This document shows, one piece after another, positions 35,671-52,924 of a DNA stretch of 64,000 nt. Source of the stretch: a virus; the IMG/VR virus record IMGVR_UViG_3300034418_007971, positions 7,489 to 71,488 of that record; one strand, given 5' to 3'. The position numbers and the translations under genes were made by a program. The notes under the pieces were generated by a model. It did not search any database. It was not told the origin of the DNA and saw only the letters and a list, made by a program, of their open reading frames with translations. Numbering within the stretch: the first letter of the stretch is position 1; each line of letters starts with the position of its first letter.

Positions 35671-36225
35671 ATGAAAAAACTACTTACTATCCCATTATTT
35701 ATAATTTTTCTAACCGCATACTCCCAAGGATTTACATTAGTAGAAACTTGTTTTGTAGAAGACCTTAATGGGAACTTAATTGAAATTGATTGTAAAGATT
35801 TGATACCAAACATCAGTAACATTGATTCTATTTGTTGGGAAATGGAGAAACGTTTTGTAAATACATTAAATGAATGGAGACGAAATCATGGAATTAGTGA
35901 ATTAGAGTACGATTATGACATGCAATCACTATTGACAGTTCCTTGGAATGAAAGTCAAGTACAATCAGGTAAGATTAGTCACGGTGAAGGTTATAACAGT
36001 TTAAGAAATAGGAGTAATAGAGTCGGTATTGGTGGTGTAGGTGAGTGTTGTGCATATAATAGTAGGTCTGATATTGGAGAAGTGTCACAATTTTTTATTC
36101 AGTATAAGAATAGTCCTTTACACTGGAAAATTTTAACTGATGAAGACTACCACTATATTGCAGTCTCAGTACTATACAACCAAGAAAAAAATCGGTATTA
36201 TTCTGTAGTAAATGTTAGGTGGTGA
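35671..36225 (+). CDS. Secreted CAP/SCP-domain protein
   Basis: Signal peptide; 'LNEWRRNHG...ISH...GEC...SPLHWKIL'. Confidence 0.75.
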   Translation: MKKLLTIPLFIIFLTAYSQGFTLVETCFVEDLNGNLIEIDCKDLIPNISNIDSICWEMEKRFVNTLNEWRRNHGISELEYDYDMQSLLTVPWNESQVQSGKISHGEGYNSLRNRSNRVGIGGVGECCAYNSRSDIGEVSQFFIQYKNSPLHWKILTDEDYHYIAVSVLYNQEKNRYYSVVNVRW

Positions 36226-36276: not shown

Positions 36277-36665
36277 GGGGGCGTTTTTGGATTTGACTGG
36301 TACAGTCAGGCACAGAGTGCACGTAGTGAGAGGTTACCTATCACTTTAATACATGGTTACAAAACACAAACGGCGAAACTTTCGCAAAACTTCAGGCAGT
36401 CGGTTTACTCCGCACTGAAGAGGTTTACGCAGCCTAAGGCTCCGTTTACCGCGGGTCGGTCAGGACATATACCTAGGAACAGAAGTCCGTTGTTGAGGTG
36501 GAAAGGTGACTAAACCCTAAATTGAGTCACACATCTGTTGGTGGTAGAGGATGTTAAAATTCAACCACATATTTCGGATTGTTGAGAATCAATAATGACC
36601 TAAACGTGTAGTACTCTCTGTTTGGGGTATACAGGACGGGAGTTCGAGTCTCCCCGCTTCCACTA
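36277..36665 (+). ncRNA. ssrA: tmRNA
   Basis: 5' GGGGGCG...GGATTTGAC; 3' T-arm GGGAGTTCGAGTCTCCC plus CGCTTCC-A acceptor with G3:U; tag ORF 36372-36437 GETFAKLQAVGLLRTEEVYAA*; CCA not encoded (CTA). Confidence 0.92.
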
Positions 36666-37717: not shown

Positions 37718-38215
37718 ATGAACAATGTGTTAGTACTAAATGCAGACTATTCACCTCTGAATATCACTAGTCTTCAGAGAGGGTTTGTTTTAGTAGATAA
37801 GGGAAAGGCTGAGATAATAAAAAGTGGAGAAAAAGACATTATCACAACTATAGGTAATTTTGTTAGACCAGTTATTATACGGTTACTAAACTTTATACGG
37901 TATAGACCAAAAAACATTAAAGTTAATCGAAGAAGAATTTTTAAAAGAGATAAATCAACTTGTCAGTACTGTGGGTCTAAAAAACACTTGACTATCGACC
38001 ACGTTATGCCTCGTTCTCGTGGTGGTGGTAATACATGGACAAATTTGGTTACATGTTGTTCAGGATGTAATGTTTATAAGGGTAATAAAACTCCAAAAGA
38101 GGCTGGTATGAAGTTAATTAATAGACCTTATGAGCCCTCTATTTTCTCTTCTGTTTTTTATGAAGAAGCTGAAGATATTTGGAACGATTTTAAGTTATCG
38201 TTTAAATCTTATTAA
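37718..38215 (+). CDS. HNH endonuclease (McrA-like)
   Basis: VLVLNADY; RD..TCQYCG....TIDHVMPRSRGG..TW.NLV.CC..CN..KG.KTP. Confidence 0.9.
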   Translation: MNNVLVLNADYSPLNITSLQRGFVLVDKGKAEIIKSGEKDIITTIGNFVRPVIIRLLNFIRYRPKNIKVNRRRIFKRDKSTCQYCGSKKHLTIDHVMPRSRGGGNTWTNLVTCCSGCNVYKGNKTPKEAGMKLINRPYEPSIFSSVFYEEAEDIWNDFKLSFKSY

Positions 38216-38273
38216 CCATTTTTAACTATTTATAGGTAGTAGTTCTTCAATAAACAAGTAAACCTATAAATGT

Positions 38274-41200
38274 ATGCTTTTAACTTTTTTAAGGAATTTA
38301 TTCCTTCTTACACTCCCCCTGTTCCTATTTAATGGTAACTTAGGGGCTCAATGTGACGTTTTTATAGAACAAGGTTCTGTAGTCGTTACTGATAATGGTA
38401 GTGGTGTCAAATTTCAGTTTGATGTTACTAACAATTCAGGTAGTGAATGGGAAGGGGATGTACTTAAAATGTATTGGTCACTTAATTCAAGTGCACCTAT
38501 ATGGACCATAGATTATACCTCAAACAACAATGTTGGACCCTTACCTCCTGGACAAACTAGGACAATAACCACCCCATGGTTCGACATTCCAAATCTCCCT
38601 TCATGGTTTCCTGAAGACCCCGGTCCGGGTGGTGACTTGGACGATTATTGGGTCGAGGCTTTAGAATGGCCTTATTGGTCTGCAAATCCAAACGGTTTTG
38701 ATGGGACGTGGTCGCAAATGAATCTACGTCTCGGAAGTTGTGGTTTGGGTGATGGTGCGTGGGTATATAACGATAACGGTGACCCTTATTATGGTCCTTT
38801 TAATAGTGATTGTCCCGATGTAAATAATGATGCGTTTTGTGATTGTGATGTTAATTTTCTTGGGTTTGACCCCGAAACGTATGATGTTAGTGTTGAGGTA
38901 GTATCTCACTGGAATTGTGGTACTTCTTTAAATACCAGTGGTTTTTCGAGTGAAATGGATTATGTCAATATGATTCAAATCGGTGCTCATGTACCTGGTT
39001 GGGATTATCCGTGGGGTTGTACTGCAGCTCAGTACCATTTAGGATGGACGTTTGATAATCCTGTAGCTTTTGAAGAGTTTTATGCTGGTGACACAATTAA
39101 TTATAATATGTTTTCAGACGATACATTCTATGATGATTGTTTTCAGGAAATATTAGAAAGTGATACTTTAACTTCATGTTTAGAGATTGTTTTATGGCAA
39201 ATTAATTATTCTGAAACCGCGATTGTCGGTGAGATAGATGGTGGATGGGCGGCAACATGTGGTACTTGCGCGAACCAAACTCAATTTTACCCTGATATGT
39301 CTATGGAGTTAAACTCAATGAATATTTGTAATGCACCACCTCCATTGTATCCTGGTTGTATGGATTCAGATGCTGAAAATTATAACCCTAATGCGGGATA
39401 TGATGATGGTTCGTGTACATATCCTCCCATTCTTGGGTGTATGAATCCAATTGCATGTAATTATGATGTTAATGCAACTGAAAACTATGGATGTATAACT
39501 TGTGAAACACCTTATGAAGAAGGTCTTGCGTGTAATGAGTTTCAAAATTCATCTAGCTATTGGGATTGGTATTTATCTGTTTTTAACTGTAACCAAGGAT
39601 GTACAGACCCTGAAGCAATTAATTATGATGAAAATGCTGAAAATGATGATGGGTCATGTGAGTACGATACGATAACTTCACCTGACGCAAGTGGATACGT
39701 ATCATTTTTAGGTACTATATGTAATAACGGTATACCATCTAACGAAGTTAATATATTGGTGATTAACCCCGATACGGGTAGTTTTGACGCTACTGATACC
39801 TTATTTAACTACTGTGTTGAAGTACCTGAATTAGGGTTGGATAGTTGTCTGTACGGTGATGTTAACGCTTCCGATTATATGTTACCAGGTGAAGGTCAGG
39901 TAGTATGGAATGTTATTGTACCTAACTATATAACACAATTAACAGTAAATGCGTATTATGCTGAAGGTGAGATTGATGAAAACTCTTCTAATAATACTTA
40001 CTTTTATTCAAATCTTATTCAAGACCCCGATGTATGTCCCGTATTAGGGTGTACTGACCCTATTGCTGAAAATTATAATCCGTTGGCAACTGAAGATAAT
40101 GGTAGCTGTGAATATATGGTCGACCTATCATTAGATAGTGTAACTATAAACGAATACTGTGACGGATTTACCCCATACTGGATTCCTACAATACATCTTA
40201 ACAATTTAACTAACCCTGCAATAAATGAGTACTGTATTAAAATTCAAGTCTTAGGACAAACAAACGATACTATCTGTTTTAATGCAATGGGTACAACAAT
40301 TAATTCATTCGGTGATATTTCATTAGAATGGCCCGAACCAATATACTCATATGGTACTGTTAGTATTCATGTTTTAGATGTTAATGGTGAAAGTCCTAAC
40401 TCATGGGAAGATTTCGGAGAAGATGATAACATCAGTAATAACATGTTAGTTTTGACTATCGGTAACCCTACTATTAATTGTGACGTTTTAGGATGTATAG
40501 ATGAAACCGCTAATAATTTTAATCCTAACGCAAATATAGATGATGGAAGTTGTACCTATGATATTACAGAATTAAATTATTTAGGGTCAGAATGTACGGT
40601 ATATTGTGACCAAACAGGTCCTTACTATTACGTCACCTCCACCTTTCAAAATACGGGTAATGTTACAATTACTGATTTTTGTGCTGAGTGGAATGTAATT
40701 GGGGGTGAGGAAGAGATAGAGTGTTTTAATGGAGTTTTAGAACCTAATCAAACAGTAACTTTAGAATATGGTCCTATATACACTGATGGTAGTGGTGTTG
40801 TATGGGTCTATTTACAAGAACTAAATGGTGTTGTTTTAAACCCTGAAATAGGATTTACAGAAACATTGTTCTGTTTATCAGAAGCTGAATCAATTTGTAT
40901 TTATGGTTGTACAGATAATGAAGCGAACAATTACAACCCTGATGCGGACTTGGATGATGGGTCTTGTCAATATGATGTCTTTGGTTGTACGGACCCTGAA
41001 GCTAACAATTACGACTCGACCGCTAACGTGGACGATGGCTCTTGTACTTATGACGTATTCGGTTGTACAGACCCAACCGCAAATAATTATAACCCCTTGG
41101 CTACGACCGATGATGGAAGTTGTACTTATGATATCTATGGGTGTACTGATTCAAATGCAAATAACTTTAACCCGAACGCAAACGTGGATGACGGTTCTTG

Positions 41201-41672
41201 TGAATATGATGTATTTGGGTGTACTGATGAAAGTGCTAATAATTATAATCCGTTGGCTAACGTAGATGATGGTTCATGTGAATATGACGTTTATGGATGT
41301 ACGGACATGAATGCTATTAACTACAACAGTGATGCAAATATAGATAACGGAACTTGTATTTATCCTGGTCCTTGTGATGAGTTCGATGGTCAAGCGTTCG
41401 CACCAAACGCATTTAGTCCGAATAATGATGGTTTGAACGATTCTTGGGGTGTCATTACAGATGAAGAGTGTTGGAACTCATGGGAAGTGTTAATCTTTAA
41501 CAGATGGGGTCAAATAATATATGAGATGAATAACCCATCTGATAGATGGGATGGTAGTTTTAGAAATGGTGAGTATTATGTTGAAGACGGTGTATATGCT
41601 TATACGTTACGAGCTGTGGCATGGAATTTGGAGACTATAGAAACTACAGGTTTCATAACCGTTCTCAGATAA
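38274..41672 (+). CDS. Large secreted adhesin-like protein with T9SS type-B (gliding-motility-associated) C-terminal domain
   Basis: Signal peptide ending ...LGAQ; 11 GCxDxxAxNYxxxAxxDDGSC repeats; Ig/CARDB-like blocks; CTD 'PNAFSPNNDGLND...IFNRWGQ.I...WDG...GVY.Y...G.IT.LR'. Confidence 0.9.
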   Translation: MLLTFLRNLFLLTLPLFLFNGNLGAQCDVFIEQGSVVVTDNGSGVKFQFDVTNNSGSEWEGDVLKMYWSLNSSAPIWTIDYTSNNNVGPLPPGQTRTITTPWFDIPNLPSWFPEDPGPGGDLDDYWVEALEWPYWSANPNGFDGTWSQMNLRLGSCGLGDGAWVYNDNGDPYYGPFNSDCPDVNNDAFCDCDVNFLGFDPETYDVSVEVVSHWNCGTSLNTSGFSSEMDYVNMIQIGAHVPGWDYPWGCTAAQYHLGWTFDNPVAFEEFYAGDTINYNMFSDDTFYDDCFQEILESDTLTSCLEIVLWQINYSETAIVGEIDGGWAATCGTCANQTQFYPDMSMELNSMNICNAPPPLYPGCMDSDAENYNPNAGYDDGSCTYPPILGCMNPIACNYDVNATENYGCITCETPYEEGLACNEFQNSSSYWDWYLSVFNCNQGCTDPEAINYDENAENDDGSCEYDTITSPDASGYVSFLGTICNNGIPSNEVNILVINPDTGSFDATDTLFNYCVEVPELGLDSCLYGDVNASDYMLPGEGQVVWNVIVPNYITQLTVNAYYAEGEIDENSSNNTYFYSNLIQDPDVCPVLGCTDPIAENYNPLATEDNGSCEYMVDLSLDSVTINEYCDGFTPYWIPTIHLNNLTNPAINEYCIKIQVLGQTNDTICFNAMGTTINSFGDISLEWPEPIYSYGTVSIHVLDVNGESPNSWEDFGEDDNISNNMLVLTIGNPTINCDVLGCIDETANNFNPNANIDDGSCTYDITELNYLGSECTVYCDQTGPYYYVTSTFQNTGNVTITDFCAEWNVIGGEEEIECFNGVLEPNQTVTLEYGPIYTDGSGVVWVYLQELNGVVLNPEIGFTETLFCLSEAESICIYGCTDNEANNYNPDADLDDGSCQYDVFGCTDPEANNYDSTANVDDGSCTYDVFGCTDPTANNYNPLATTDDGSCTYDIYGCTDSNANNFNPNANVDDGSCEYDVFGCTDESANNYNPLANVDDGSCEYDVYGCTDMNAINYNSDANIDNGTCIYPGPCDEFDGQAFAPNAFSPNNDGLNDSWGVITDEECWNSWEVLIFNRWGQIIYEMNNPSDRWDGSFRNGEYYVEDGVYAYTLRAVAWNLETIETTGFITVLR
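40905..41363 (+). repeat. Six tandem 78-nt (26-aa) Cys/Asp repeats
   Basis: GCTDxxAxNYxxxAxxDDGSCxYDxx; first unit at 40905, sixth at 41295. Confidence 0.9.
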
Positions 41673-41689
41673 ACAATCGATAAATAAAT

Positions 41690-41752
41690 TAGGTGACCTT
41701 CGGGTCACCTTTTTTATACAAGAAAAAAGGACTGACACCGTCAGTCCTTTTC
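41690..41752. terminator. Back-to-back terminators
   Basis: AGGTGACC-TTCG-GGTCACCT followed by T's (+ strand), and AAAGGGACTGAC-ACC-GTCAGTCCTTT (- strand). Confidence 0.85.
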
Positions 41753-41786
41753 GTAGATAATATTAACCCCCTTTTTTTAAAAAAGT

Positions 41787-42422
41787 TTATGAAAGTACAC
41801 TATCTCTAATGCCTTTCAGTTTCGAGTCCATGTTAGACTCTATTGAATCCAATAAGGAATCCAATGCTATTGTGAACTTATCCTCTAGTTCTCTTTTAAA
41901 ATCTTCGTTATCTATTCGGTTCATTAATAACTCCCTTGTCATGTCTGTTAAACCATTTAAATATTTCTCCCCAAATTCTCTTATGAATGTATCTGTGATA
42001 ATTCTGGCTAAAAATCTCTTATCTGAAAATACTTGTGGGAATTCATCTTCTTCTAATTCTAATATAGATTGTTTTAAGACTTCCTTTTCGAAAGAATCCA
42101 TATCTAATTTTGACTCTAAATAAGTTATTAATCTATCTTTAAGGGTATCTATCACTTGAGAGTTTTTATCTCCCATAAGACCCTTTAAAACCATTATAAG
42201 GTCCTCATTAATAGTGTTAGTAGATATACCCATATCCACTAAGTTCTTTGACTCCACAAAGAGTTTGTTAAAAAATTTAGTTGTTTGAATTCTTGAATTA
42301 AGGTTTACAGATTCAGAAATAATACCAAAACGTCCCTTAACAATTTTTGATTCTGTGAGTTTTGTAACCTTGACAGTCTTTGTGTCGTTTAGGTTCTTTT
42401 TTACTATCTTCTTTAGACTCAT
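41787..42422 (-). CDS. Hypothetical helical protein
   Basis: Start MSLKK; LTE/ISE/INE sites. Confidence 0.7.
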   Translation of the reverse strand: MSLKKIVKKNLNDTKTVKVTKLTESKIVKGRFGIISESVNLNSRIQTTKFFNKLFVESKNLVDMGISTNTINEDLIMVLKGLMGDKNSQVIDTLKDRLITYLESKLDMDSFEKEVLKQSILELEEDEFPQVFSDKRFLARIITDTFIREFGEKYLNGLTDMTRELLMNRIDNEDFKRELEDKFTIALDSLLDSIESNMDSKLKGIRDSVLS

Positions 42423-42423
42423 C

Positions 42424-43806
42424 TTAATTCTTTGGTCTCCACGCATTTATTGATTCGTTGAATTCCTTACTATTAATCCTCACTCTTTCATAAATATCTG
42501 CGTTTTCTGGTTTGTCAAACTTAAATCCTTTTTTTTTTAAATTTTCTAACATTTCCTTCTGACGCTTTGTGAGTTCATTTGTAAGACCTTCCCCGTCCAA
42601 TAATGATTGTAAACCTTTCTTCTCTTTTGTCTTCATAACCTCTTCAAATGGTTCATCTTTCTCCATTTCTTGATTATGTGTATTAACATAAGTATCAGTC
42701 TGTATTTCTTCCTTTTCTTTATCGTTAAAATCTACTTCAGGTATCTTGTCTCCACCGACTATCTTAAAGTCCCTGTAATCAGGTCCTTCGTTGTTTAAGA
42801 CAGTAAAGTATACTATACCACCGTCGAGTAATTTACCGAGACCATTCATTTGTGAGTTAAATGGTAATTCGATATTCGCGTTGTTATAGTATGAACCCAA
42901 TCTAACGATAGGTTCACCTGTCTTTTTATCTTCACCTTTTGCAATAACAACTGACCTGATGAATGCAATATCCTCAGGGTATTTTTTGATAAGGTCATCG
43001 AACTCTTTACTTATTTCTTCTCTATCTTCATCAGTAAAGACTACTTTTTGTTTCCCTTTGTCATTGGCTGTGTAAAAGTTAAATTCCTTTAACTTATCAT
43101 CTATCATCTCAGGTAAAGAGTTATTCATTTCTTCTTCTTTTATTATATTCATTAATCCTTTAGATTCGTTTAATTTTTTATACGCATCAAATTCAGTCCA
43201 CCGACCATTAGGGTCAATTTCATCGTCTATCCATCCCCATGGTCCACTTGTTCCATTTTTTCTTTCTACTTTATACATTCTTGGTTTATTTTCTGATAAG
43301 TTTCTACCCCATAAAACAATTCTTTCTTTACCGTCAGGGGCACCTCCACTACCTGTATCCGGCCATTGTATTCTTAACATTTTAGCAACATATCTATTTT
43401 GAGGTTGCTCTGTTGTACCTGTTCTTAAATCATCATACAATTGTTTAAATTCTTTTTCTACCTCAGAGTTACTACTTTTACTATTAACATGTAAATTTAG
43501 GTTGTGATACATGTCTTTAATTTGACTTTGGAAGTCTCCTGTAAGTACTACTCCACCGGCTGAACCTGTAGAAGGTGTAGGTGCAGGTGTGGGTGCGGGT
43601 GCGGGTGCAGGAGTTGGTGTCGCAGTAATGGGACATTTATAATATTCCTTAGGGGGCGTTCCAAGAGTAACAGACTCTAACTCACTTTCTGAACATCCAC
43701 CACTACTGGCAGCAGCACTTTTATTGTGTTTCCATCCATTATTTCTAGCATCAATAGGGCTAGTGGGTGTAGGATTTGTATTACTCTGTTCGTTTAATAA
43801 ATTCAT
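42424..43806 (-). CDS. Hypothetical protein with Pro/Thr linker
   Basis: 460 aa; MNLLNEQ start; internal LNES and IIKEE. Confidence 0.7.
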   Translation of the reverse strand: MNLLNEQSNTNPTPTSPIDARNNGWKHNKSAAASSGGCSESELESVTLGTPPKEYYKCPITATPTPAPAPAPTPAPTPSTGSAGGVVLTGDFQSQIKDMYHNLNLHVNSKSSNSEVEKEFKQLYDDLRTGTTEQPQNRYVAKMLRIQWPDTGSGGAPDGKERIVLWGRNLSENKPRMYKVERKNGTSGPWGWIDDEIDPNGRWTEFDAYKKLNESKGLMNIIKEEEMNNSLPEMIDDKLKEFNFYTANDKGKQKVVFTDEDREEISKEFDDLIKKYPEDIAFIRSVVIAKGEDKKTGEPIVRLGSYYNNANIELPFNSQMNGLGKLLDGGIVYFTVLNNEGPDYRDFKIVGGDKIPEVDFNDKEKEEIQTDTYVNTHNQEMEKDEPFEEVMKTKEKKGLQSLLDGEGLTNELTKRQKEMLENLKKKGFKFDKPENADIYERVRINSKEFNESINAWRPKN

Positions 43807-45146
43807 TAGTCTAATCCAATTTTTTCCAAAAACTTATTAATTACACTCTCTTTATCATCATTTTCAACTGGACTTGCGTGTATGGTATTTGTCATTTTCA
43901 TTATTACATAATCACTATCTCTATTTTCGTCTTCACTGAAATTAATCATATCTACATAGTTTTGATTTTCATCCTCTTTAGTAAAAATATATTCGTTTTT
44001 TGAGTCTTTAAGTTGATTCGACAAATTTTCTTCCGCCCATTTTTCCGCGTCTTCCACACTAATATAAGTTAATTCTCGTTTTGTTTGAGAAACCAAAGTT
44101 CCTCCAACCGAAAGTACAGTAGAAACGAACCACGGAACTACACCGAGGTAGTATTCTGATTGAGGGTCATCATATTCACCCATTAACCAATTGGAAAAAT
44201 TACCCAAAACGATATCAACAAGAGCGGCATTAAGAAATGCACCTCCAGGACCATATAATACGGATTGAGCCTTGTTGTAACCTTTGTCGCGCTTTACTGA
44301 ATATCCGTATTTACCTTTGTACCAATCTCTTAATCTTTTTAAATTTGCAAGAACCTTAGGGTCATCAGCATATTTTTCACGAGAGGCAATTTTTTCGGCT
44401 AAAACATCACTTTTAGCCAATACATCGTCTATACTTTTTTGTAACTGTTCCTCTATCTCTTTTTCGGTTTTACCCCTACTACTTCTAATAAAATTTTTCA
44501 TTCTACTTTCAAAGTTAGGTAATCGGGTCAACATTTTTCTAGACTTCTCATCTTTTACTACCAAAGTTAATAACGCGTTTACGTCCAATGATTTAGTTAT
44601 CCCATGTTCTAAATTATACTTACCTCTACTAGCGGATTCGGCCATGTCATCAATTTGGTTGTACATATTATCTTTAAGTCCAGGTATATCATCTAAACCT
44701 TCAATCTCATCTAACTGTCCTTTTAAGTCAGTAACTAATGAATCAACATCTACTTTTTTACCGCTTGCTATTAAATTATCTACCTTAGTAAATAATGTAT
44801 CGATACTTTCACCTATTTTTGTTGCCCTTATAACAAATCCTGCAAATGCATCTGGGTCCTTAGCTCTTAAAAGAAGTTCAATTTCTTCATCAGTCATGTT
44901 TTTTACAGCATCATCACCAAATTTTGAAATATCATCTTTTAAATTACTCAATTTATTTTTAGTTTGTGGATTACTTCTAAATATGGTATCGAATTCATCT
45001 AAAAATCTTTCACCACCCATTTTTTGAATGCCACTTCTAATATATTCTCGACCGTATCTAACCCCTTTCGCCGTTATTCCCCCATGTTCTTTTAACAACA
45101 TTATTTCTTTAATCCTGTTAACTTCTGTTATTAACTTATTATTCAT
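43806..45146 (-). CDS. Hypothetical protein with N-terminal tag and hydrophobic C-terminal segments
   Basis: MNNKLITEVNRIKEIMLLKE; late motif at 45160. Confidence 0.7.
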   Translation of the reverse strand: MNNKLITEVNRIKEIMLLKEHGGITAKGVRYGREYIRSGIQKMGGERFLDEFDTIFRSNPQTKNKLSNLKDDISKFGDDAVKNMTDEEIELLLRAKDPDAFAGFVIRATKIGESIDTLFTKVDNLIASGKKVDVDSLVTDLKGQLDEIEGLDDIPGLKDNMYNQIDDMAESASRGKYNLEHGITKSLDVNALLTLVVKDEKSRKMLTRLPNFESRMKNFIRSSRGKTEKEIEEQLQKSIDDVLAKSDVLAEKIASREKYADDPKVLANLKRLRDWYKGKYGYSVKRDKGYNKAQSVLYGPGGAFLNAALVDIVLGNFSNWLMGEYDDPQSEYYLGVVPWFVSTVLSVGGTLVSQTKRELTYISVEDAEKWAEENLSNQLKDSKNEYIFTKEDENQNYVDMINFSEDENRDSDYVIMKMTNTIHASPVENDDKESVINKFLEKIGLD

Positions 45147-45200
45147 AGATTATTTTTTATATAAATATAGTGTTTATTATTAAATGGTATATTAGTTTTT

Positions 45201-46484
45201 TTACTTAATCACATAATCGTTTATATCAATAGAATTAAGTACCTTCTCGACTTCTTTTATCGTCGCTTCTTCACTTTCATTTATAGTTTTTATCTGAACT
45301 GTTGCTCTTTCGGTCAATTCTGCGTTAGCCTCTTTTACCAATACGTCATCAGGAACAGCTAACTGTTCTTCAGTTAATGTCGGTTTAGGTCCCCATTGTT
45401 CTTCCCACTTTATATCATAATACTGAGTTAGTCTATATAATAGTTCATCTCCCATAAATAATACACCACCTATTCTAATAGACCATTTTAATGTAAAAAT
45501 AGATAACCTAGATAGGTTAAGTAATAATATTGTAATACCTCTTAAACCCATTGACATTAAGGTTGCTGCATTTTTAGCGATAGTAGTATATCTAACTGAT
45601 AATTTATACAATTCATCTTGTTGTTCGGCAATTTCATTAACCACCTTTGTTTCGGCAGCATTTAAAGGAAGTCCATCATATACCTTCTTAAGTAAATTAC
45701 CAATTGCACCTTCACCAGCTTCTTTGATTAGTCTTTTTACTCCCGGAATTCTACTTATTAACACCCCACCAGGAATAGCCATAAAAATCGTAGCTAATGC
45801 GGCTGTTGTAGTATCACCTTCTCTGTAATACATATATGCATCTGCAGCTTCTAACACACCAGCAAGAACAATACCTGCCACACCACCTGTAGCTATACTA
45901 ACAATTATAGCAGCTATCGGTAAAAAATAATGATGAAAACCCTCTAAATCATATGTTTGTCTATCTTCCCATTCTTTCAAATCTTTTTCATAAATGTCCC
46001 ATACATCTTGTTTATATTTACCTTTTAAAAGTATGAATGGAGGTATTCCTGATGAGGAGGGGTTTTCGGTTTCCCTTTTATTAAGGTCGAGATAAGGTTT
46101 GATAATATTTTTGTAATATTTTTCATATCTTGGAGAATCATATGTTATGAACCAGTAACCATTTGGGTTTTTGTGATTTCCATTTCCATCTAAGTAGTAA
46201 CCCTCTCCTCGTTTTGGTGTGGGTTCTGTAGGTTTTGTATTTCCTGTGTATCTCATAGCCTCCGATTCATATTGCGTTTTCACCCAATCATCTATTCCCA
46301 TTTTATCTATATCATTTTTTATGGGATTATATCGGTTATTTGCAAAATGGTCTTGATAACCATGTTGTGAATAATCAATATTAGACAAATCATAGTCATT
46401 TGTCTGTTCTAACAGAGTTTTAGACCTATCATAGTTCATAAGTCTATTAACTTCGTTTAAACTAATTATTAATTTATTATCCAT
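45201..46484 (-). CDS. Tagged late protein with Gly/Ala-rich membrane-inserting helices
   Basis: LNEVNRLM...LLEQ; FLPIAAIIVSIATGGVAGIVLAGV; late motif at 46500. Confidence 0.7.
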   Translation of the reverse strand: MDNKLIISLNEVNRLMNYDRSKTLLEQTNDYDLSNIDYSQHGYQDHFANNRYNPIKNDIDKMGIDDWVKTQYESEAMRYTGNTKPTEPTPKRGEGYYLDGNGNHKNPNGYWFITYDSPRYEKYYKNIIKPYLDLNKRETENPSSSGIPPFILLKGKYKQDVWDIYEKDLKEWEDRQTYDLEGFHHYFLPIAAIIVSIATGGVAGIVLAGVLEAADAYMYYREGDTTTAALATIFMAIPGGVLISRIPGVKRLIKEAGEGAIGNLLKKVYDGLPLNAAETKVVNEIAEQQDELYKLSVRYTTIAKNAATLMSMGLRGITILLLNLSRLSIFTLKWSIRIGGVLFMGDELLYRLTQYYDIKWEEQWGPKPTLTEEQLAVPDDVLVKEANAELTERATVQIKTINESEEATIKEVEKVLNSIDINDYVIK

Positions 46485-46507
46485 GATAATAGTTTTTATT
46501 ATAAATA

Positions 46508-46539
46508 TTTGTTTAATTAAAAAATTGCGCCTATATTTG
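46508..46539 (+). promoter_or_regulatory. Bacteroidota-type promoter (near-leaderless)
   Basis: TTTG-N20-TATATTTG with ATG 4 nt downstream. Confidence 0.7.
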
Positions 46540-46543
46540 TGTC

Positions 46544-46777
46544 ATGGATAAATCAAATACACATTGGGATTTTTATAATTCAATTGAGAATAAAGTATTA
46601 CTTAGTAGTAATACGACAGATGAGTTTTTACTAAGAATGAAAAAGGTTGATTTATTCTTTGGTGATTTTGAACGTATAGTTGATGATATTAGTGTAACTA
46701 TTAAAAATATTGACGTTAATCAATACATTATCAAAGAAACTATTTTTGAAAAGATTAAATCTTATTTTTTACGTTAA
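46544..46777 (+). CDS. Hypothetical protein
   Basis: 77 aa after a host-type promoter. Confidence 0.6.
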   Translation: MDKSNTHWDFYNSIENKVLLSSNTTDEFLLRMKKVDLFFGDFERIVDDISVTIKNIDVNQYIIKETIFEKIKSYFLR

Positions 46778-47470
46778 AGTGTTAGCTTTACCTCTACTAA
46801 TACCTGATTCCCATTTACTATTTTGGTCAATCATGTTTCCCTTACCTCTATTAACATTATCTGTCCACACGGTTATGGTTATTTGATTGGCTGGTCCGCG
46901 AGTTAATCCTGTTTCCCATGTAGTAACACCCGCATTTGTGGATGATGAGTCACCTCCTGCATCTCCACCTGTGTCTCCACCACCTTCTTCTTGTTCTGTT
47001 ACTTCTTCATCCGCCGGAAATCCTTCTTCACCATATATTTCAGGATGTTGCAATCCGTACTTCTTAAGTAATTCACCTGCAACTGCATTTGCTTCATCTT
47101 CTATAGGACCACCAACATTTTGTATTTTACCTTTCAATTCACCTTCTTCATTTTGATGATGATGTACTAACTCATGAGCCACTGACCTCATAATGTCTTG
47201 TAACGCCCTTTCTTTGGTATAGACGGTGACCTCCGCATTTTCTATATCTGCATTTTCACCATCTTCGTACCTATAAACTGCTGTTGTATCTACTTTAGAC
47301 TTGTCTTCCGTGTAGTCAATATTAACCTCATTTTCTATACCTAACTCTTTTACAACTAAATCAACAAAATTTTCCAAATGTCTTTTATCCTCTGAAGGAA
47401 ATAAAGATTCACCTTCAGTAATGTTCATAAGGGTTTTAATACGATTAATATTTTCGTGTAATAGACTCAT
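46769..47470 (-). CDS. HExxH zinc metalloprotease-like late protein
   Basis: MRSVAHELVHHHQ...EDEANA.AG; N-terminal LHENINRIKTLM tag. Confidence 0.7.
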   Translation of the reverse strand: MSLLHENINRIKTLMNITEGESLFPSEDKRHLENFVDLVVKELGIENEVNIDYTEDKSKVDTTAVYRYEDGENADIENAEVTVYTKERALQDIMRSVAHELVHHHQNEEGELKGKIQNVGGPIEDEANAVAGELLKKYGLQHPEIYGEEGFPADEEVTEQEEGGGDTGGDAGGDSSSTNAGVTTWETGLTRGPANQITITVWTDNVNRGKGNMIDQNSKWESGISRGKANTLT

Positions 47471-47494
47471 ATATCATAAGTATCATCAAAAATA

Positions 47495-48487
47495 TTATTG
47501 GAACGTACAAGATGGTGGATAAGTACACGGAGGTGGAGTAATACTACTTTTTCTTTCTCTTTGTCTTACTCTTATTATTGTCGATATTTCATGTGCACCA
47601 CCCGAACCAGGTCCTAATTGTGATGTGGTTAAATCATATGAGTAGTGAAATACCAAATCACCCGTATCAACCCCAAAGTTAAATATCACAACATCTCTAT
47701 ATGAGTATCCTTCAACAAACCTAAACCCTGCACCAAATAAAAACTTATCTAAATTAATGTTATTATTTACCGTTAATTGTGAAAATTCACCTTGTTTTAA
47801 AAAAGAAAACGAAGGCATATAAGTTACATTTCTTCTAACATACGCGTATTTGTTTTTACTTATATGACCCCCACCATGTAGTCCATATTTTACTGGTAAA
47901 TAACTTTCACCGAAAATTAATGATTGGTTGGGTGTATTAACGTGATTTGAGGCAAACCCAAAAAACCATTTATCGGAAAATAATAATAAACCAGAACTTA
48001 AGTCAAAATAATGAACTTTCAAACCATTCATAAAAGGCTCATTAGTAATTAATGAGAATGATGTTCCGTTAAATGAGTCTTCAAAAAATAGTTTGTTATT
48101 ATCGATAAAGTTTTGCTTATACCCTAACTCCAATCCGAATTTAATATTTAGTTTTGGAGAAAGACGTTGTTGATTACTATAAAATGTCGATATTGAGTTA
48201 AGTGAGTATATACCGTTACCTGACCTATCATTCATTAGTGTGACGCCGAATCCACTATTTAAAGATGGGTCATATTCTTCGTAACTCAAAAAACTTGTGA
48301 CAAATTGATTTCCTAACGCCGGCCATTGGTTTCTATATGACATCGTTAATTCGGGATTACTGGTTGAACCCGCAAAGGCAGGATTCAAATACAACTTATT
48401 GTTGTTAATTTGCGAAAAAGATACGTCCTGAGATATTCCAATAAATGAAAACAGGAGAAATAAGACTGATAATGTGTACTTAATCAT
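47495..48487 (-). CDS. PorP/SprF-family type IX secretion outer-membrane protein
   Basis: Signal peptide plus QD..FSQ......LNPAFAG, YRNQWP, HV.TPN, YSYD.T.S.L....GAHEIS; late motif at 48491. Confidence 0.9.
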   Translation of the reverse strand: MIKYTLSVLFLLFSFIGISQDVSFSQINNNKLYLNPAFAGSTSNPELTMSYRNQWPALGNQFVTSFLSYEEYDPSLNSGFGVTLMNDRSGNGIYSLNSISTFYSNQQRLSPKLNIKFGLELGYKQNFIDNNKLFFEDSFNGTSFSLITNEPFMNGLKVHYFDLSSGLLLFSDKWFFGFASNHVNTPNQSLIFGESYLPVKYGLHGGGHISKNKYAYVRRNVTYMPSFSFLKQGEFSQLTVNNNINLDKFLFGAGFRFVEGYSYRDVVIFNFGVDTGDLVFHYSYDLTTSQLGPGSGGAHEISTIIRVRQRERKSSITPPPCTYPPSCTFQ

Positions 48488-48517
48488 ACTTATAAATATA
48501 AATTTTAACCATTAAAA

Positions 48518-49991: not shown

Positions 49992-50303
49992 ATGAAAAGA
50001 CAAATTTTATTAGATGAATACGAGTTTTCTGACGGAGAACTTAGAGTTGTATTTACCTTTGATAGAAAAGAATACATCGAGGATTATATAGATGAAAATA
50101 CTTTTGAAGATTATATTAATGATTCAGGTCGTTTGGAGTTTTTTGAAGATAGATGGGATGGTTATAGTGAATCTCATTATACTAAAGAATATATAATCGA
50201 TTATTCAGATTGGAGAAATGAATATTGTGAAAATAGTGACATTTTAAATTTTCTTGATTATTATTATAAGACGAATAAAGTTCCTGAACCGATAGAAGAG
50301 TGA
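49992..50303 (+). CDS. Acidic hypothetical protein
   Basis: 103-aa ORF; C-terminus FLDYYY..VP resembles the neighbour's FLNEYY..LP. Confidence 0.65.
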   Translation: MKRQILLDEYEFSDGELRVVFTFDRKEYIEDYIDENTFEDYINDSGRLEFFEDRWDGYSESHYTKEYIIDYSDWRNEYCENSDILNFLDYYYKTNKVPEPIEE

Positions 50304-50941
50304 AATTAATATCTACATCCTTTGATAACGTTTATCTAATTGAAGAACCTTCTTTTGAAGATGAAAGAGGTTACTTTATGGAAACGTGGAATGAATTAGC
50401 GTATTCTAATAAGAAACTACTTAATGATATTCCGTCCCTTAAAGCCATACAAAACGATAATTCGTTATTCTCTACTTTGTTTGTACAAGATAATTTATCT
50501 GTCAGTAAAAAAGGAGTATTTAGAGGATTACACTACCAAGTGGGTAACTTTTCTCAAGCCAAACTTGTTAGAGTGTTGAGAGGTTCCGTTGTTGATTTCA
50601 TAGTTGACCTAAGAGAGCAATCAAAAACTTATGGTAAGTTTGAGTTTTTTGAATTAAACGAAAAAAATAAATTATCCTTGTTCGTTCCACCATATTTTGC
50701 ACATGGTTTTCTATCTTTAGAGGACGATACAATTTTTACATATAAATGTGGTAACTATTATCACAAAGAAAGTGAAGGAAGTGTTAACTATTCCGACAAC
50801 GTAATTAGACACATTCAAAACAATAAAGATACAATATCCGATGTTATTCAACTATTTATACCCTATGAAACCGAAATGGACCTCATTATTTCTGAAAAAG
50901 ACAGGAATGCGCCGAAATTCTTACATAGACGACATGGATGA
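50300..50941 (+). CDS. rmlC: dTDP-4-dehydrorhamnose 3,5-epimerase
   Basis: DERGYFMETW, VQDN.S.S.KGV.RGLHYQ, QAKLVRV..G...D..VDLR, AHGF. Confidence 0.93.
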   Translation: MKLISTSFDNVYLIEEPSFEDERGYFMETWNELAYSNKKLLNDIPSLKAIQNDNSLFSTLFVQDNLSVSKKGVFRGLHYQVGNFSQAKLVRVLRGSVVDFIVDLREQSKTYGKFEFFELNEKNKLSLFVPPYFAHGFLSLEDDTIFTYKCGNYYHKESEGSVNYSDNVIRHIQNNKDTISDVIQLFIPYETEMDLIISEKDRNAPKFLHRRHG

Positions 50942-52510: not shown

Positions 52511-52924
52511 ATGACCGTACACGAAATCAGTAACTACTTCAATCAGTGCCCAAACATGGAAAAGGCTTATAAAGAGCACAAAAACATTGGTCGGTTGATT
52601 CGTAGTAACGTATTTAAGCACACTAGCAATCGTCACTGGGATAATATGGACTTACTTTACAAAATCACATATATTAAGGTCAGTCGTAATGATGACTTGT
52701 TGGTCAACATCAAAGTCTCAGGTACTATGGGTCGTTCTTCTTGGCGTAGTAAGGAAAATACTTGTGTTACTGATTACGTTAAAATTAATCACTCAACCTC
52801 TCGTCGTCGTAATGACGATATTCGTCGGGCAGTTCGAGACGATGTTCAAAAGTTTTTCCGTCTTTTCGGTATGGATACTTACAAGATTGAGATTGGTAAA
52901 GTTAAAGTGTGTAAGGAACTTTAA
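52511..52924 (+). CDS. Basic hypothetical early protein
   Basis: 137 aa; CGT-rich codon usage. Confidence 0.7.
   Translation: MTVHEISNYFNQCPNMEKAYKEHKNIGRLIRSNVFKHTSNRHWDNMDLLYKITYIKVSRNDDLLVNIKVSGTMGRSSWRSKENTCVTDYVKINHSTSRRRNDDIRRAVRDDVQKFFRLFGMDTYKIEIGKVKVCKEL

What the first reader, a model, noticed from the sequence alone, without database searches (positions are those of the whole stretch)
38274..48487. Phage-encoded T9SS type-B cargo plus a PorP/SprF adaptor: possible hijack of the host type IX secretion system
Seen: 38274-41672 encodes a 1132-aa signal-peptide protein with 11 Cys/Asp repeats, Ig-like blocks and a type-B T9SS CTD. 47495-48487 encodes a full PorP/SprF beta-barrel. Both sit among phage late genes, and both are preceded by the phage (A)TATTTAT motif (38227, 48491). 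Established: type-B CTD proteins such as SprB need a cognate PorP/SprF protein for T9SS export and surface anchoring. Inference: the phage brings a minimal two-gene kit to display its own adhesin on infected cells through the host T9SS. Possible roles are aggregating infected cells with new hosts or particles before lysis, masking receptors, or jamming gliding. I do not know of a described phage system like this.
Basis: partly seen in the sequence, partly recalled or inferred. Interest (0 to 1): 0.92.

Follow-up and report, generated by a model that had tools for sequence, protein, structure and literature searches.

The report
Phage-encoded T9SS cargo and carrier
A lineage of giant viruses of aquatic Flavobacteria-like bacteria carries both a large secreted surface protein and the outer-membrane carrier that the host's type IX secretion system needs to export and hold it, which suggests that the virus redecorates the surface of the cells it infects.

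Summary
ORF 38274-41672 (+) encodes a 1132-aa protein with a signal peptide and a type-B T9SS C-terminal domain (CTD). ORF 47495-48487 (-) encodes a full-length PorP/SprF barrel. Both pass the curated HMM cut-offs. The contig is an IMG/VR virus record, about 23% of a roughly 300-kb T4-like jumbo phage.

The pair is not a chimera. Both genes are syntenic in 5 of 5 viral records and in 14 of 14 clade metagenome loci. The phage PorP/SprF proteins form one clade, at most 40% identical to any of the 80 best bacterial matches. Both genes are under purifying selection. The barrel keeps the C-tail cysteine that links SprF to the gliding track (PMC12635249). A complex model scored 0.82 against 0.00 for the best control. 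No core T9SS gene was found in the phage.

Best reading: the phage supplies a cognate cargo-carrier pair that the host T9SS exports onto the infected cell. What this achieves is unknown.

It is not wholly new. Phage type-A T9SS cargo is published (PMC7468147), and other huge phages carry type-B cargo without a carrier. I found no paper describing a phage-borne carrier.

The parts
38227..38234 (+). TATTTATA promoter-like motif, 39 nt upstream of the cargo start
   Evidence: It is conserved as CTATTTATAGG upstream of the cargo gene in L001, L003 and L004.
38274..41672 (+). T9SS type-B cargo gene, 1132 aa (P0001)
   Evidence: dN/dS is 0.15 against the relatives. Homologs carry PF13585 in more than 100 clusters, on contigs up to 309 kb.
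38274..38348 (+). Sec signal peptide of the cargo (aa 1-25, cleavage LGA|Q inferred)
   Evidence: Read from the translation. Q26 is nearly invariant in A2. No signal-peptide predictor was run.
38349..40907 (+). Passenger: a conserved Cys/Trp-rich N-terminal region (aa 26 to about 345), four dispersed Cys/Asp repeats (aa 362-383, 443-464, 593-614, 741-762) and three beta-sandwich modules
   Evidence: No Pfam family passes the cut-off. Foldseek gives only generic Ig/FN3-like arrays.
40908..41363 (+). Six tandem 26-aa Cys/Asp repeats (aa 879-1030)
   Evidence: The same repeat matches Synechococcus phage S-CAM3 'virion structural protein' at 54% identity.
41379..41669 (+). Type-B C-terminal sorting domain (aa 1036-1132)
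   Evidence: PF13585 and TIGR04131. dN/dS is 0.06-0.07. It is predicted to dock on the phage barrel. It has a weak sequence match to the C-terminus of the Aureispira protein GhpA, 9flp_A, E 2.8e-4.
41787..43806 (-). Two conserved ORFs of unknown function (219 aa and 460 aa) between cargo and carrier, with no signal peptide
   Evidence: Syntenic in L001-L004 and L125. Whether they belong to the system is not known.
43806..46484 (-). Variable cassette: 446-aa and 427-aa ORFs, each preceded by the TATTTATA motif and replaced by other sequence in the relatives
   Evidence: No family hits.
46769..47470 (-). Conserved 233-aa ORF directly downstream of the carrier gene, with a HELVH (HExxH) motif and no signal peptide
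   Evidence: Peptidase_M78, E 0.0087, below the cut-off. It lies next to PorP/SprF in every clade locus that reaches it. dN/dS is 0.05-0.19.
47495..48487 (-). PorP/SprF-family outer-membrane carrier gene, 330 aa (P0002)
   Evidence: PF11751 and TIGR03519. 14-strand barrel model. Nearest solved folds are FadL, OmpG and PorV. dN/dS is 0.08-0.16.
47498..47569 (-). Unstructured periplasmic C-tail of the carrier (aa 307-330) with Cys321 and Cys327
   Evidence: 26 of 29 clade members have a Cys in the last 8 residues, consensus P-S-C-x-F. In F. johnsoniae SprF the C-tail cysteines form a disulfide bond to GldK (PMC12635249).
48431..48487 (-). Sec signal peptide of the carrier (aa 1-19, cleavage GIS|Q inferred)
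   Evidence: Read from the translation. Q20 is invariant in A1.
48491..48498 (-). TATTTATA motif, 3 nt upstream of the carrier start
   Evidence: Conserved as GATATTTATAGG in L001, L003 and L004.

Best explanation

Proposed sequence of events:
1. During infection both genes are transcribed, probably from a shared phage promoter motif.
2. Both proteins cross the inner membrane by Sec.
3. The 14-strand PorP/SprF barrel is inserted into the host outer membrane.
4. The CTD of the 1132-aa protein is taken through the host's SprA translocon and handed to the phage's own carrier. The carrier keeps the beta-sandwich and Cys-repeat passenger on the surface of the infected cell.
5. The carrier's conserved C-tail cysteine may tie it to the host GldK/PorK track, as shown for SprF.

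Shown here: family membership, the phage context, conservation of the pair, purifying selection, and a passing in-silico complex.
Inferred: the host, the expression timing, export, anchoring and the track link.

The purpose is unknown. The options I rank highest are changing the T9SS-dependent surface that flavobacterial phages use as receptors (superinfection exclusion), or sticking infected cells to particles or neighbouring cells.
For: Family membership:
- HMM hits for both proteins pass the curated cut-offs and cover the full models.
- Both N-termini read as signal peptides with Gln at +1. Q20 is invariant and Q26 nearly invariant.

Phage context:
- Major head protein, portal and large terminase are in the window.
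- G000 is an IMG/VR virus record, 23% complete by CheckV. The relative G001 is 270 kb and 88% complete.

Conservation of the pair:
- PF13585 and PF11751 are each found in 5 of 5 records.
- All 14 of 14 clade loci from metagenomes show the same phage synteny. The cargo is present in all 3 that reach far enough, 2 of which duplicate IMG/VR records.

A phage-specific lineage:
- 33 rows form one clade, SH-aLRT 100, stem length 1.25.
- The best 80 matches kept from a pattern scan of the species-genome collection (185,579 species by the tool's description) are at most 40% identical.

Selection: dN/dS is 0.08-0.16 for the carrier, 0.15 for the cargo and 0.06-0.07 for the CTD. dS is saturated, so these ratios are approximate.

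Carrier tail: 26 of 29 clade members have a Cys in the last 8 residues, and 89 of 91 other listed homologs have one in the last 12. The role of SprF's tail cysteines comes from PMC12635249 (passages read).

Complex model:
- ipSAE 0.82 against 0.00 for the best of 3 controls. That mark was reached by 58 of 80 solved complexes and 2 of 110 mismatched pairs.
- The three runs share at least 91% of contacts, and partner pLDDT is at least 82.
- Conserved carrier columns are enriched in the predicted interface: 27 of 55 against 71 of 256, Fisher p = 0.002.

Dependence on the host machine: no SprA_N, GldK or PorV in G000 or G001.

Regulation: the promoter-like motif is conserved upstream of both genes in the relatives.

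Presence in RNA libraries: contigs from 4 runs of 3 studies carry near-identical pieces of both genes. Examples are 38591-38867 with 0 differences and 47863-48088 with 2.

Published biology of the families:
- Type-B substrates need cognate PorP/SprF-like shuttles (PMC12618676: abstract and section 10).
- They bind those shuttles for surface anchorage (PMC9143113: abstract).
Against: - No experiment. The host is unknown, and its T9SS is assumed from the Flavobacteriales affinity of the nearest homologs.
- The two genes are 5.8 kb apart and convergent, not tandem as in the four bacterial loci where a CTD lies just upstream of the carrier.
- The ORFs between them have no signal peptide and no known family.
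- The tail has one Cys, or C-x5-C, rather than SprF's C-x-C. 3 of 29 clade members lack a Cys in the last 8 residues.
- Cargo and carrier do not strictly co-evolve. Between L001 and L004 the cargo is 99.8% identical but the carrier only 82%.
- The complex pass may lean on solved PorV-CTD complexes. The carrier model resembles PorV chains 8gl6_F and 6h3i_F, TM 0.53-0.57. No PDB sequence matches the PorP profile, though.
- Conserved CTD columns are not significantly enriched in the interface (11 of 36 against 15 of 66, p = 0.26).
- RNA-library contigs cannot exclude carried-over DNA.
- Two huge phages carry 4 and 3 type-B CTD ORFs above the family cut-off but no PorP/SprF. A phage-borne carrier is therefore not a general requirement.
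- The repeat module also occurs in a cyanophage protein annotated as a virion structural protein.
Confidence: 0.65

Rival explanations
1. Host-takeover or exclusion device rather than display. The phage carrier and its CTD protein occupy the host translocon, the shuttle pathway or the GldK attachment sites. This blocks export or movement of host type-B adhesins. The result would be arrested gliding, or removal of the T9SS-dependent receptors used by competing phages. The passenger itself would be secondary.
For: - T9SS and gliding mutations give broad phage resistance in Flavobacterium, and SprB and RemA are thought to be phage receptors (PMC9804748, passages read).
- The carrier keeps the tail Cys that targets GldK in SprF.
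- The relative G001 and two huge phages also encode proteins or reading frames of 121-127 aa that are little more than a type-B CTD (shown to be signal peptide plus CTD for G001's 125-aa ORF only). These look more like competitors or plugs than passengers.
Against: - The 1000-aa passenger is itself under purifying selection: dN/dS is 0.15 in the N-terminal region. That is unexpected if only the CTD mattered.
- In F. johnsoniae GldK is reported to be in large molar excess over SprF and PorG, so competition for it is unlikely (PMC12635249).
Confidence: 0.15
2. The large protein is a virion or virion-associated protein, for example a decoration or fibre module. The CTD-like fold and the barrel would then serve some role other than T9SS export.
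For: - The Cys/Asp repeats match a Synechococcus phage S-CAM3 protein annotated 'virion structural protein', 54% identity over residues 874-1034.
- The gene carries the same upstream motif as genes in the structural block.
- Foldseek finds phage tail and fibronectin-like proteins among the matches.
Against: - A cleavable Sec signal peptide and a full T9SS sorting domain under the strongest constraint of the whole protein do not fit cytoplasmic virion assembly.
- An outer-membrane beta-barrel has no place in a tailed-phage virion.
- The cyanophage match covers the repeats only.
Confidence: 0.07
3. Functionless passenger genes captured from a host chromosome (a neutral moron).
For: Both families are otherwise bacterial, and neighbouring genes such as RmlC and PPK2 look like acquired host-type genes.
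Against: - One deep, diversified phage clade on a long stem.
- At most 40% identity to any of the 80 best bacterial matches kept by the scan.
- dN/dS of 0.06-0.16.
- A phage promoter-like motif conserved at both genes.
- The pair is retained in all records that cover the region.
Confidence: 0.04
4. Assembly chimera or host contamination: the T9SS genes belong to a bacterial contig wrongly joined to phage DNA.
For: The record is a single metagenome-derived contig without terminal repeats.
Against: - The same gene order, with phage genes on both sides, is seen in four other IMG/VR contigs from different assemblies. It is also seen in all 14 clade metagenome loci, 2 of which duplicate those IMG/VR contigs.
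- Near-identical DNA sits in 14 runs, 4 of them (X8-X11) from study codes not flagged as a possible source.
- GC content is even across the region.
Confidence: 0.01

Closest known systems
SprB-SprF of Flavobacterium johnsoniae (gliding adhesin and its PorP/SprF carrier)
   Same: A type-B CTD surface protein paired with a PorP/SprF-family barrel. The barrel's periplasmic C-tail carries conserved cysteine (PMC12635249; PMC9143113).
   Different: - Encoded by a lytic-type jumbo phage, not by the cell.
- The cargo is 1132 aa with an unrelated passenger.
- The genes are convergent and 5.8 kb apart.
- The tail has a single Cys, or C-x5-C, rather than C-x-C.
- No other gliding genes were found in the phage: SprA_N, GldK and PorV are absent.
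Other cognate type-B substrate and PorP/SprF-like shuttle pairs of F. johnsoniae (e.g. Fjoh_3952/Fjoh_3951; orphan CTDs with Fjoh_1677)
   Same: A dedicated shuttle is encoded near its substrate, and the CTD is required for secretion and targeting (PMC12618676: abstract and section 10). This is the functional model that fits best.
   Different: - The context is viral.
- I could not compare the five CTD motifs A-E, because their sequences are given only in a figure.
- The phage carriers form a clade of their own.
PorP-PorE-PG1035 complex of Porphyromonas gingivalis
   Same: A PorP barrel binds a type-B CTD protein at the cell surface (PMC9143113, abstract).
   Different: No PorE-like partner was identified next to the phage genes. 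PorP in P. gingivalis is a core T9SS component, whereas here the barrel is an accessory brought by a virus.
'Cryophage' T9SS cargo genes (Bellas et al. 2020, Nat Commun, PMC7468147)
   Same: Phage-encoded proteins carry T9SS sorting domains and are presumed to hijack the host system. The cargo region varies between phage variants (passages read).
   Different: Those are type-A CTDs, which use the host's PorV, and no phage carrier was reported. Here the type-A domain PF18962 is absent in 0 of 5 records, the CTD is type B, and the phage brings the carrier.
Type-B CTD ORFs in huge phages LR745206.1 and LR756502.1, and in UniProt viral entries (e.g. Virus NIOZ-UU157)
   Same: Phage genomes carry CHU_C / 'gliding motility-associated C-terminal domain' proteins.
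   Different: No PorP/SprF was found in the two huge-phage records (0 of 2). I did not check the genomes behind the UniProt entries.
PorV bound to a type-A CTD in the SprA translocon (PDB 8gl6, 6h3i)
   Same: A 14-strand FadL-like shuttle barrel. The carrier model superposes on it with TM 0.53-0.57.
   Different: Only about 12% identity and a different family. PorV serves type-A CTDs.

Membership tests
PorP/SprF family (TIGR03519 / PF11751) | Full-length match to the family HMMs above the curated cut-offs | tested here: met
   TIGR03519 scores 180.3 bits against a cut-off of 90.55, covering positions 2-291 of 292. PF11751 scores 156.2 bits against 22.3.
PorP/SprF family (TIGR03519 / PF11751) | Signal peptide and an outer-membrane beta-barrel | tested here: met
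   The N-terminal hydrophobic leader was read. AlphaFold2 gives 14 strands between residues 46 and 306, pTM 0.69. The nearest folds are FadL, OmpG and PorV.
PorP/SprF family (TIGR03519 / PF11751) | Genetic linkage to a type-B CTD gene | tested here: met
   The cargo lies 5.8 kb away on the opposite strand. Both genes are present in 5 of 5 viral records and in L125. The arrangement is not the tandem one seen in bacteria.
PorP/SprF family (TIGR03519 / PF11751) | Direct contact with the cognate type-B CTD (in-silico test only) | tested here: met
   ipSAE 0.82 against 0.00 for the best control. The mark was reached by 58 of 80 solved complexes and 2 of 110 mismatched pairs. The runs share at least 91% of contacts, and partner pLDDT is at least 82. 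This is a model, not a measurement, and an analogous PorV-CTD complex has been solved.
PorP/SprF family (TIGR03519 / PF11751) | Required for secretion and surface anchoring of its substrate | not testable with these tools
   This needs genetics in a Flavobacterium host.
SprF proper (gliding adhesin carrier) | Cys-Xaa-Cys motif in the periplasmic C-tail that forms a disulfide bond to GldK Cys343 (PMC12635249) | tested here: not met
   The tail reads ...PPPCTYPPSCTFQ, which is C-x5-C. Most clade members have a single Cys in P-S-C-x-F. The tail cysteine is conserved (26 of 29), so a link to the track remains possible, but the defining C-x-C is absent.
T9SS type-B substrate (TIGR04131 / PF13585 CHU_C) | Type-B CTD at the extreme C-terminus, above the curated cut-offs | tested here: met
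   PF13585 scores 63 bits against a cut-off of 27, at residues 1043-1130 of 1132. TIGR04131 scores 48.8 bits against 35.
T9SS type-B substrate (TIGR04131 / PF13585 CHU_C) | N-terminal Sec signal peptide | tested here: met
   The leader MLLTFLRNLFLLTLPLFLFNGNLGA|Q was read, and a leader is also present in the L001 homolog. No predictor tool was available.
T9SS type-B substrate (TIGR04131 / PF13585 CHU_C) | The five conserved CTD motifs A-E needed for secretion (PMC12618676) | not tested
   The motif sequences appear only in a figure that I could not see.
T9SS type-B substrate (TIGR04131 / PF13585 CHU_C) | Export depends on a T9SS in the producing cell | not testable with these tools
   The host is unknown. 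The phage itself lacks SprA_N, GldK and PorV.
Phage-encoded type-A T9SS cargo (as in 'Cryophage') | Type-A CTD (PF18962 Por_Secre_tail) | tested here: not met
   0 of 5 records have a PF18962 match.

The most novel reading that the evidence does not exclude
The phage re-tools the host's gliding machine. Its SprF-like carrier would become disulfide-linked through the conserved C-tail cysteine to the host GldK track, and would carry a phage-specified surface protein along it. An infected cell would then change what it sticks to or how it moves. It might be parked on particles or next to uninfected hosts before lysis, or it might lose the T9SS-displayed receptors that rival phages need. This would be a virus taking over a bacterial motility or secretion track with its own outer-membrane component.
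Probability: 0.2. Interest if true: 0.9.

Novelty: new variant of a known kind. Interest (0 to 1): 0.72.

Why it matters
Type-B T9SS substrates need a matching PorP/SprF carrier. Until now, such carriers have been described only as bacterial genes in the papers I could find. Here a widespread lineage of jumbo phages has kept its own carrier together with its own substrate over deep divergence. Relatives are found in fresh, marsh and marine metagenome runs and in Tara-derived proteins.

If the pair works as inferred, it would matter in three ways:
- It would be the first viral component of the T9SS outer-membrane pathway.
- It would be a natural orthogonal cargo-carrier pair for studying how CTD-shuttle specificity is set.
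- It would be a concrete case of a lytic virus remodelling the surface of its 'virocell'. Flavobacteriales surface adhesion, gliding and phage receptors all run through the T9SS.

It also offers a host-range marker, because any host must have a compatible T9SS.

Tried and rejected
Searches that found nothing:
- Megablast of the region against deposited phages: no match.
- tblastn of the carrier against deposited phages: no match.
- Single-protein IMG/VR scan: no relative. The profile scan then found four.
- PHROGs, Pfam, NCBIfam and PADLOC gave nothing above threshold for the five ORFs between the two genes.
- Relaxed Pfam scan of the passenger: only sub-threshold noise.
- ESM Atlas on residues 27-350: no usable hit.
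- Earlier notes of this scan hold nothing on this genome, sequence or a phage T9SS kit. The word search returned bacterial T9SS clusters only.

Results that told little:
- Foldseek on the cargo model: generic Ig/FN3 arrays only, with no specific function.
- The N-terminal 'NRIK..M' motif shared by neighbouring ORFs: 3 of 196 ORFs matched the pattern, one of them (31196-32266) outside this gene cluster. It is not a genome-wide signal, and I did not pursue it.
- Nearest bacterial carriers: 0 of 80 loci have the passenger nearby, and only 5 of 80 show a CTD by tblastn. The origin of the cargo therefore stays open.
- Source names of cluster members gave no organism.
- Broad PorP/SprF profile on IMG/VR: beyond this lineage it found only L110 (28% identity, a 2024-aa ORF followed by the carrier at the very edge of a provirus record, so probably host flank), L111 (29%) and a fragment, L113. 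I did not examine these further.
- Conserved CTD columns are not significantly enriched in the predicted interface (p = 0.26).
- RNA-library contigs leave much of 43.6-46.6 kb (the variable cassette) with little or no cover. The tool's own rules do not allow a conclusion from that.

Rejected outright: the chimera or host-contamination reading.

Full report
WHAT IS THERE

The window is bases 7489-71488 of a single 71,488-bp contig with no terminal repeat and 33% G+C. It is an IMG/VR virus record that CheckV rates 23% complete. The window holds a T4-type major head protein (phrog_138, E 1.8e-66), a portal (phrog_213) and a large terminase (phrog_2) at 13-23 kb. The head protein's nearest deposited relatives are a 484-kb uncultured phage, Microcystis phage Mel-JY01 and Flavobacterium phage immuto, all at 42-45% identity. 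A relative contig of 270,383 bp is rated 88% complete. Homologs of both focal proteins sit on contigs of 301-310 kb. The window is therefore a fragment of a jumbo phage of roughly 300 kb.

THE TWO GENES

ORF 38274-41672 (+) encodes 1132 aa. It has a hydrophobic leader ending LGA|Q, 54 cysteines and ten strict copies of a 22-residue Cys/Asp motif (six of them in tandem at residues 879-1030), plus one degenerate copy. At the extreme C-terminus is a type-B T9SS sorting domain: PF13585 at 63 bits against a cut-off of 27, and TIGR04131 at 48.8 against 35. AlphaFold2 with a 32-sequence alignment (mean pLDDT 70.5, pTM 0.33) shows a beta-rich N-terminal region, three beta-sandwich modules, the repeat array and a beta-sandwich CTD. 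Foldseek returns only generic Ig/FN3 arrays from the PDB. No Pfam family describes the passenger even at relaxed thresholds.

ORF 47495-48487 (-) encodes 330 aa that match PorP/SprF end to end: TIGR03519 at 180 bits against a cut-off of 90.55, and PF11751 at E 1.6e-45. It has a leader ending GIS|Q. It models as a 14-strand barrel (pTM 0.69) followed by an unstructured 24-residue tail. The nearest solved folds are FadL, OmpG and PorV, the type-A T9SS shuttle (8gl6_F, 6h3i_F; TM 0.53-0.57). Gln at position +1 of both leaders fits what I recall as the Bacteroidota preference for N-terminal glutamine after signal-peptide cleavage. That point is recalled and comes from no call.

NOT A CHIMERA, AND NOT A ONE-OFF

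A profile of the carrier clade found four other IMG/VR contigs, of 270, 115, 83 and 55 kb. All four share the gene order across about 20 kb, in this sequence:
- a PPK2 fusion, RmlC and small ORFs;
- the carrier;
- a conserved 233-aa ORF;
- a variable segment;
- conserved 460-aa and 219-aa ORFs;
- the cargo on the opposite strand;
- an HNH endonuclease.

PF13585 and PF11751 each hit 5 of 5 records, and the type-A domain PF18962 hits 0 of 5. A metagenome scan added 14 clade loci (at least 60% identity). All 14 have the same phage neighbours. The three that extend far enough (L115, L124, L125; the first two duplicate IMG/VR contigs) carry the cargo. Near-identical DNA occurs in 14 sequencing runs. 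Seven are flagged as possible sources. Four others (X8-X11), each under a study code of its own that is not flagged, hold 0.87-0.97 of the sampled words.

A PHAGE LINEAGE OF THE CARRIER

Among 2921 homologs, the listing shows about 30 clusters at 47-98% identity, followed by a drop to 39% or less. P0033 is a 195-aa fragment of the clade. I left it out of the alignment and the tree, and I left the truncated P0028 out of alignment A1 only.

In a tree of 123 rows, the 33 clade rows form one side of a branch with SH-aLRT 100 and length 1.25. Their sister is a small group (P0032, P0034, P0038, P0039) of unknown origin. 596 of them encode a relative, and the best 80 were kept. Those 80 are 32-40% identical, and most are titled Flavobacteriales, Crocinitomicaceae or Cryomorphaceae. 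None of those 80 loci has the phage passenger nearby. Only 5 show a CTD by tblastn, and in 4 of these it lies directly upstream of the carrier in the classical tandem arrangement.

SELECTION AND REGULATION

Against L001, L003 and L004, Nei-Gojobori dN/dS values are as follows:

| Gene or region | dN/dS |
|---|---|
| Carrier | 0.08-0.16 |
| Cargo, whole | 0.15 |
| Cargo, CTD only | 0.06-0.07 |
| 233-aa neighbour | 0.05-0.19 |

dS is above 1, so the ratios are approximate. L001 and L004 share a 99.8%-identical cargo but only an 82%-identical carrier. The locus is therefore mosaic, and one CTD can evidently serve with diverged carriers.

TATTTATA occurs 24 times against 13.2 +/- 3.5 expected, and 1 of 100 shuffles reaches 24. 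15 of the 24 copies lie within 45 nt upstream of a same-strand ORF start. These include the cargo, the carrier, both variable ORFs, and genes of the structural block such as the ORF preceding the head gene. The motif is conserved upstream of both genes in the relatives although the flanks have diverged. That it is a late promoter is inference.

DO THE TWO PROTEINS FIT EACH OTHER AND THE HOST MACHINE?

A complex model of the mature carrier with the last 102 residues of the cargo, both given as alignments, scored ipSAE 0.82 in three runs. The best of three controls scored 0.00. The runs agree in at least 91% of contacts, and partner pLDDT is at least 82. In the tool's calibration, 58 of 80 solved complexes and 2 of 110 mismatched pairs reached that mark.

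No PDB sequence matches the carrier profile (0 at E <= 0.01). A structurally analogous PorV-CTD complex has been solved, however, so part of the confidence may reflect that likeness. Conserved carrier columns are enriched in the predicted interface (27 of 55 against 71 of 256, p = 0.002). Conserved CTD columns are not (11 of 36 against 15 of 66, p = 0.26).

Liu et al. 2025 (PMC12635249; outline and passages read) showed that the C-x-C motif in the periplasmic C-tail of SprF forms a disulfide bond to GldK Cys343, which ties the adhesin carrier to the moving track. The phage carrier ends ...PPPCTYPPSCTFQ. 26 of 29 clade members have a Cys in the last 8 residues (consensus P-S-C-x-F), and the other 3 have one about 17 residues from the end. 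89 of 91 other listed homologs end in a similar ...C-P-x-F. The tail cysteine is thus kept, but the strict C-x-C of SprF is not.

SprA_N, GldK and PorV were not found in this record or in the 88%-complete relative. The phage must therefore rely on the host's translocon and motor.

EXPRESSION

Contigs from four metatranscriptome runs of three studies contain pieces that are identical or nearly identical to both genes. Examples are 38591-38867 and 41142-41395 with 0 differences, and 47863-48088 with 2. Contigs cannot show strand or level, and DNA carry-over is not excluded. This is consistent with transcription but does not prove it.

WHAT IS KNOWN

- Type-B substrates depend on cognate PorP/SprF-like shuttles (Paillat et al. 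2025, PMC12618676; abstract and section 10 read).
- They bind those shuttles for surface anchorage (Gorasia et al. 2022, PMC9143113; abstract read).
- Bellas et al. 2020 (PMC7468147; passages read) described a 'Cryophage' with three type-A CTD genes. [quoted passage not shown]
- Here I also found 4 and 3 type-B CTD ORFs above the family cut-off, plus one weak match, in the 635-kb and 642-kb phage records LR745206.1 and LR756502.1. Neither record has a PorP/SprF.
- Several UniProt viral entries are auto-named 'gliding motility-associated C-terminal domain'.

Phage-borne T9SS cargo is therefore a known kind. Seven full-text searches turned up no paper describing a phage-encoded PorP/SprF carrier. 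That library omits most subscription journals, so this is a bounded negative.

MECHANISM AND ROLE

The best-supported reading is a self-contained cargo-carrier pair exported by the host T9SS onto the infected cell. I give it a confidence of 0.65. What it is for is open.

T9SS and gliding mutations give broad phage resistance in Flavobacterium, and SprB and RemA are thought to be phage receptors (PMC9804748; passages read). Changing the T9SS-dependent surface could therefore exclude other phages, or spare progeny from adsorbing to doomed cells. Alternatively, the beta-sandwich and Cys-repeat passenger may be a binding module that holds infected cells on particles or next to new hosts. Its repeat also occurs in a cyanophage protein annotated as a virion structural protein. 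A jamming role for the pair is the main rival, at 0.15.

VERDICT

The feature is a new variant of a known kind: the first phage-borne T9SS carrier I could find, paired with its own type-B substrate. It is conserved across a widespread jumbo-phage lineage and can be tested directly in Flavobacterium genetics.

Noticed in passing
window 36277-36665 (+): A phage-encoded tmRNA. Rfam RF00023 scores 99.4 bits against a cut-off of 47. ARAGORN gives the tag peptide GETFAKLQAVGLLRTEEVYAA. RNA-library contigs cover it at high depth, but with many differences, so they may come from relatives.
   Followed up: partly
L010 1396-1773 (+), in the 270-kb relative G001; also L104 and L105 in LR756502.1 and LR745206.1: Mini type-B CTD genes. 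In G001 a 125-aa ORF is just a signal peptide plus a CTD. The two huge phages have CHU_C hits in frames of 121 and 127 aa. They could be plugs or competitors for host carriers, or anchors for partner proteins as earlier scan notes proposed for bacteria. The part of this phage that would hold the G001 gene lies outside the contig.
   Followed up: partly
window 43806-46484 (-): A variable two-gene cassette (446 aa and 427 aa, with hydrophobic segments) between conserved neighbours. Each gene has its own TATTTATA motif. The cassette is replaced by unrelated sequence in L001-L004. No family hit.
   Followed up: partly
window 46769-47470 (-), 43806-45146 (-), 45201-46484 (-): Three neighbouring ORFs begin with a similar N-terminal peptide (..L..E.NRIK..M..). 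The 233-aa one also has a HELVH motif and a C-terminal W-x-[TS]-G-[LI]-[TS]-R-G-x-A-N repeat. Three of 196 ORFs match a strict pattern: the 233-aa and 446-aa ORFs, plus an unrelated ORF at 31196-32266. The 427-aa ORF resembles it only by eye.
   Followed up: partly
L001 versus L004 (IMG/VR relatives): Mosaicism inside the locus. The cargo is 99.8% identical, but the carrier only 82% and the 233-aa ORF only 78%. This implies recombination between the two T9SS genes.
   Followed up: no
window 40908-41363 (+); NC_031906.1 36382-37932: The 26-aa Cys/Asp repeat (G-C-T-D..A-N-N-Y-N..D-D-G-S-C-x-Y) also occurs in Synechococcus phage S-CAM3 'virion structural protein', in S-CAM4 'OmpA/MotB domain protein' and in a marine single-cell virus record. 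It has no Pfam model.
   Followed up: partly
window 29112-31133 (+) and 31196-32266 (+): An FtsH-like ATP-dependent protease (phrog_4871, E 9e-246) followed by a peptidase-like ORF (phrog_4191).
   Followed up: no
window 50300-50941 (+), 52921-55482 (-), 35671-36225 (+): Host-type auxiliary genes near the T9SS pair: a dTDP-4-dehydrorhamnose 3,5-epimerase (PF00908, E 3e-53), an 853-aa DUF4314 + PPK2 polyphosphate-kinase fusion (E 7e-70), and a CAP/cysteine-rich secretory family protein.
   Followed up: no
window 37718-38215 (+): An HNH endonuclease (HNH_5, E 1.9e-16) directly upstream of the cargo gene. It is conserved at that position in L003 and L004.
   Followed up: no
L110 343-7494 (IMG/VR provirus record from an isolate genome): A 2024-aa ORF immediately followed by a PorP/SprF gene (28% identical to the phage's), at the very start of a predicted provirus. 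This is probably host flank rather than a second viral case.
   Followed up: no
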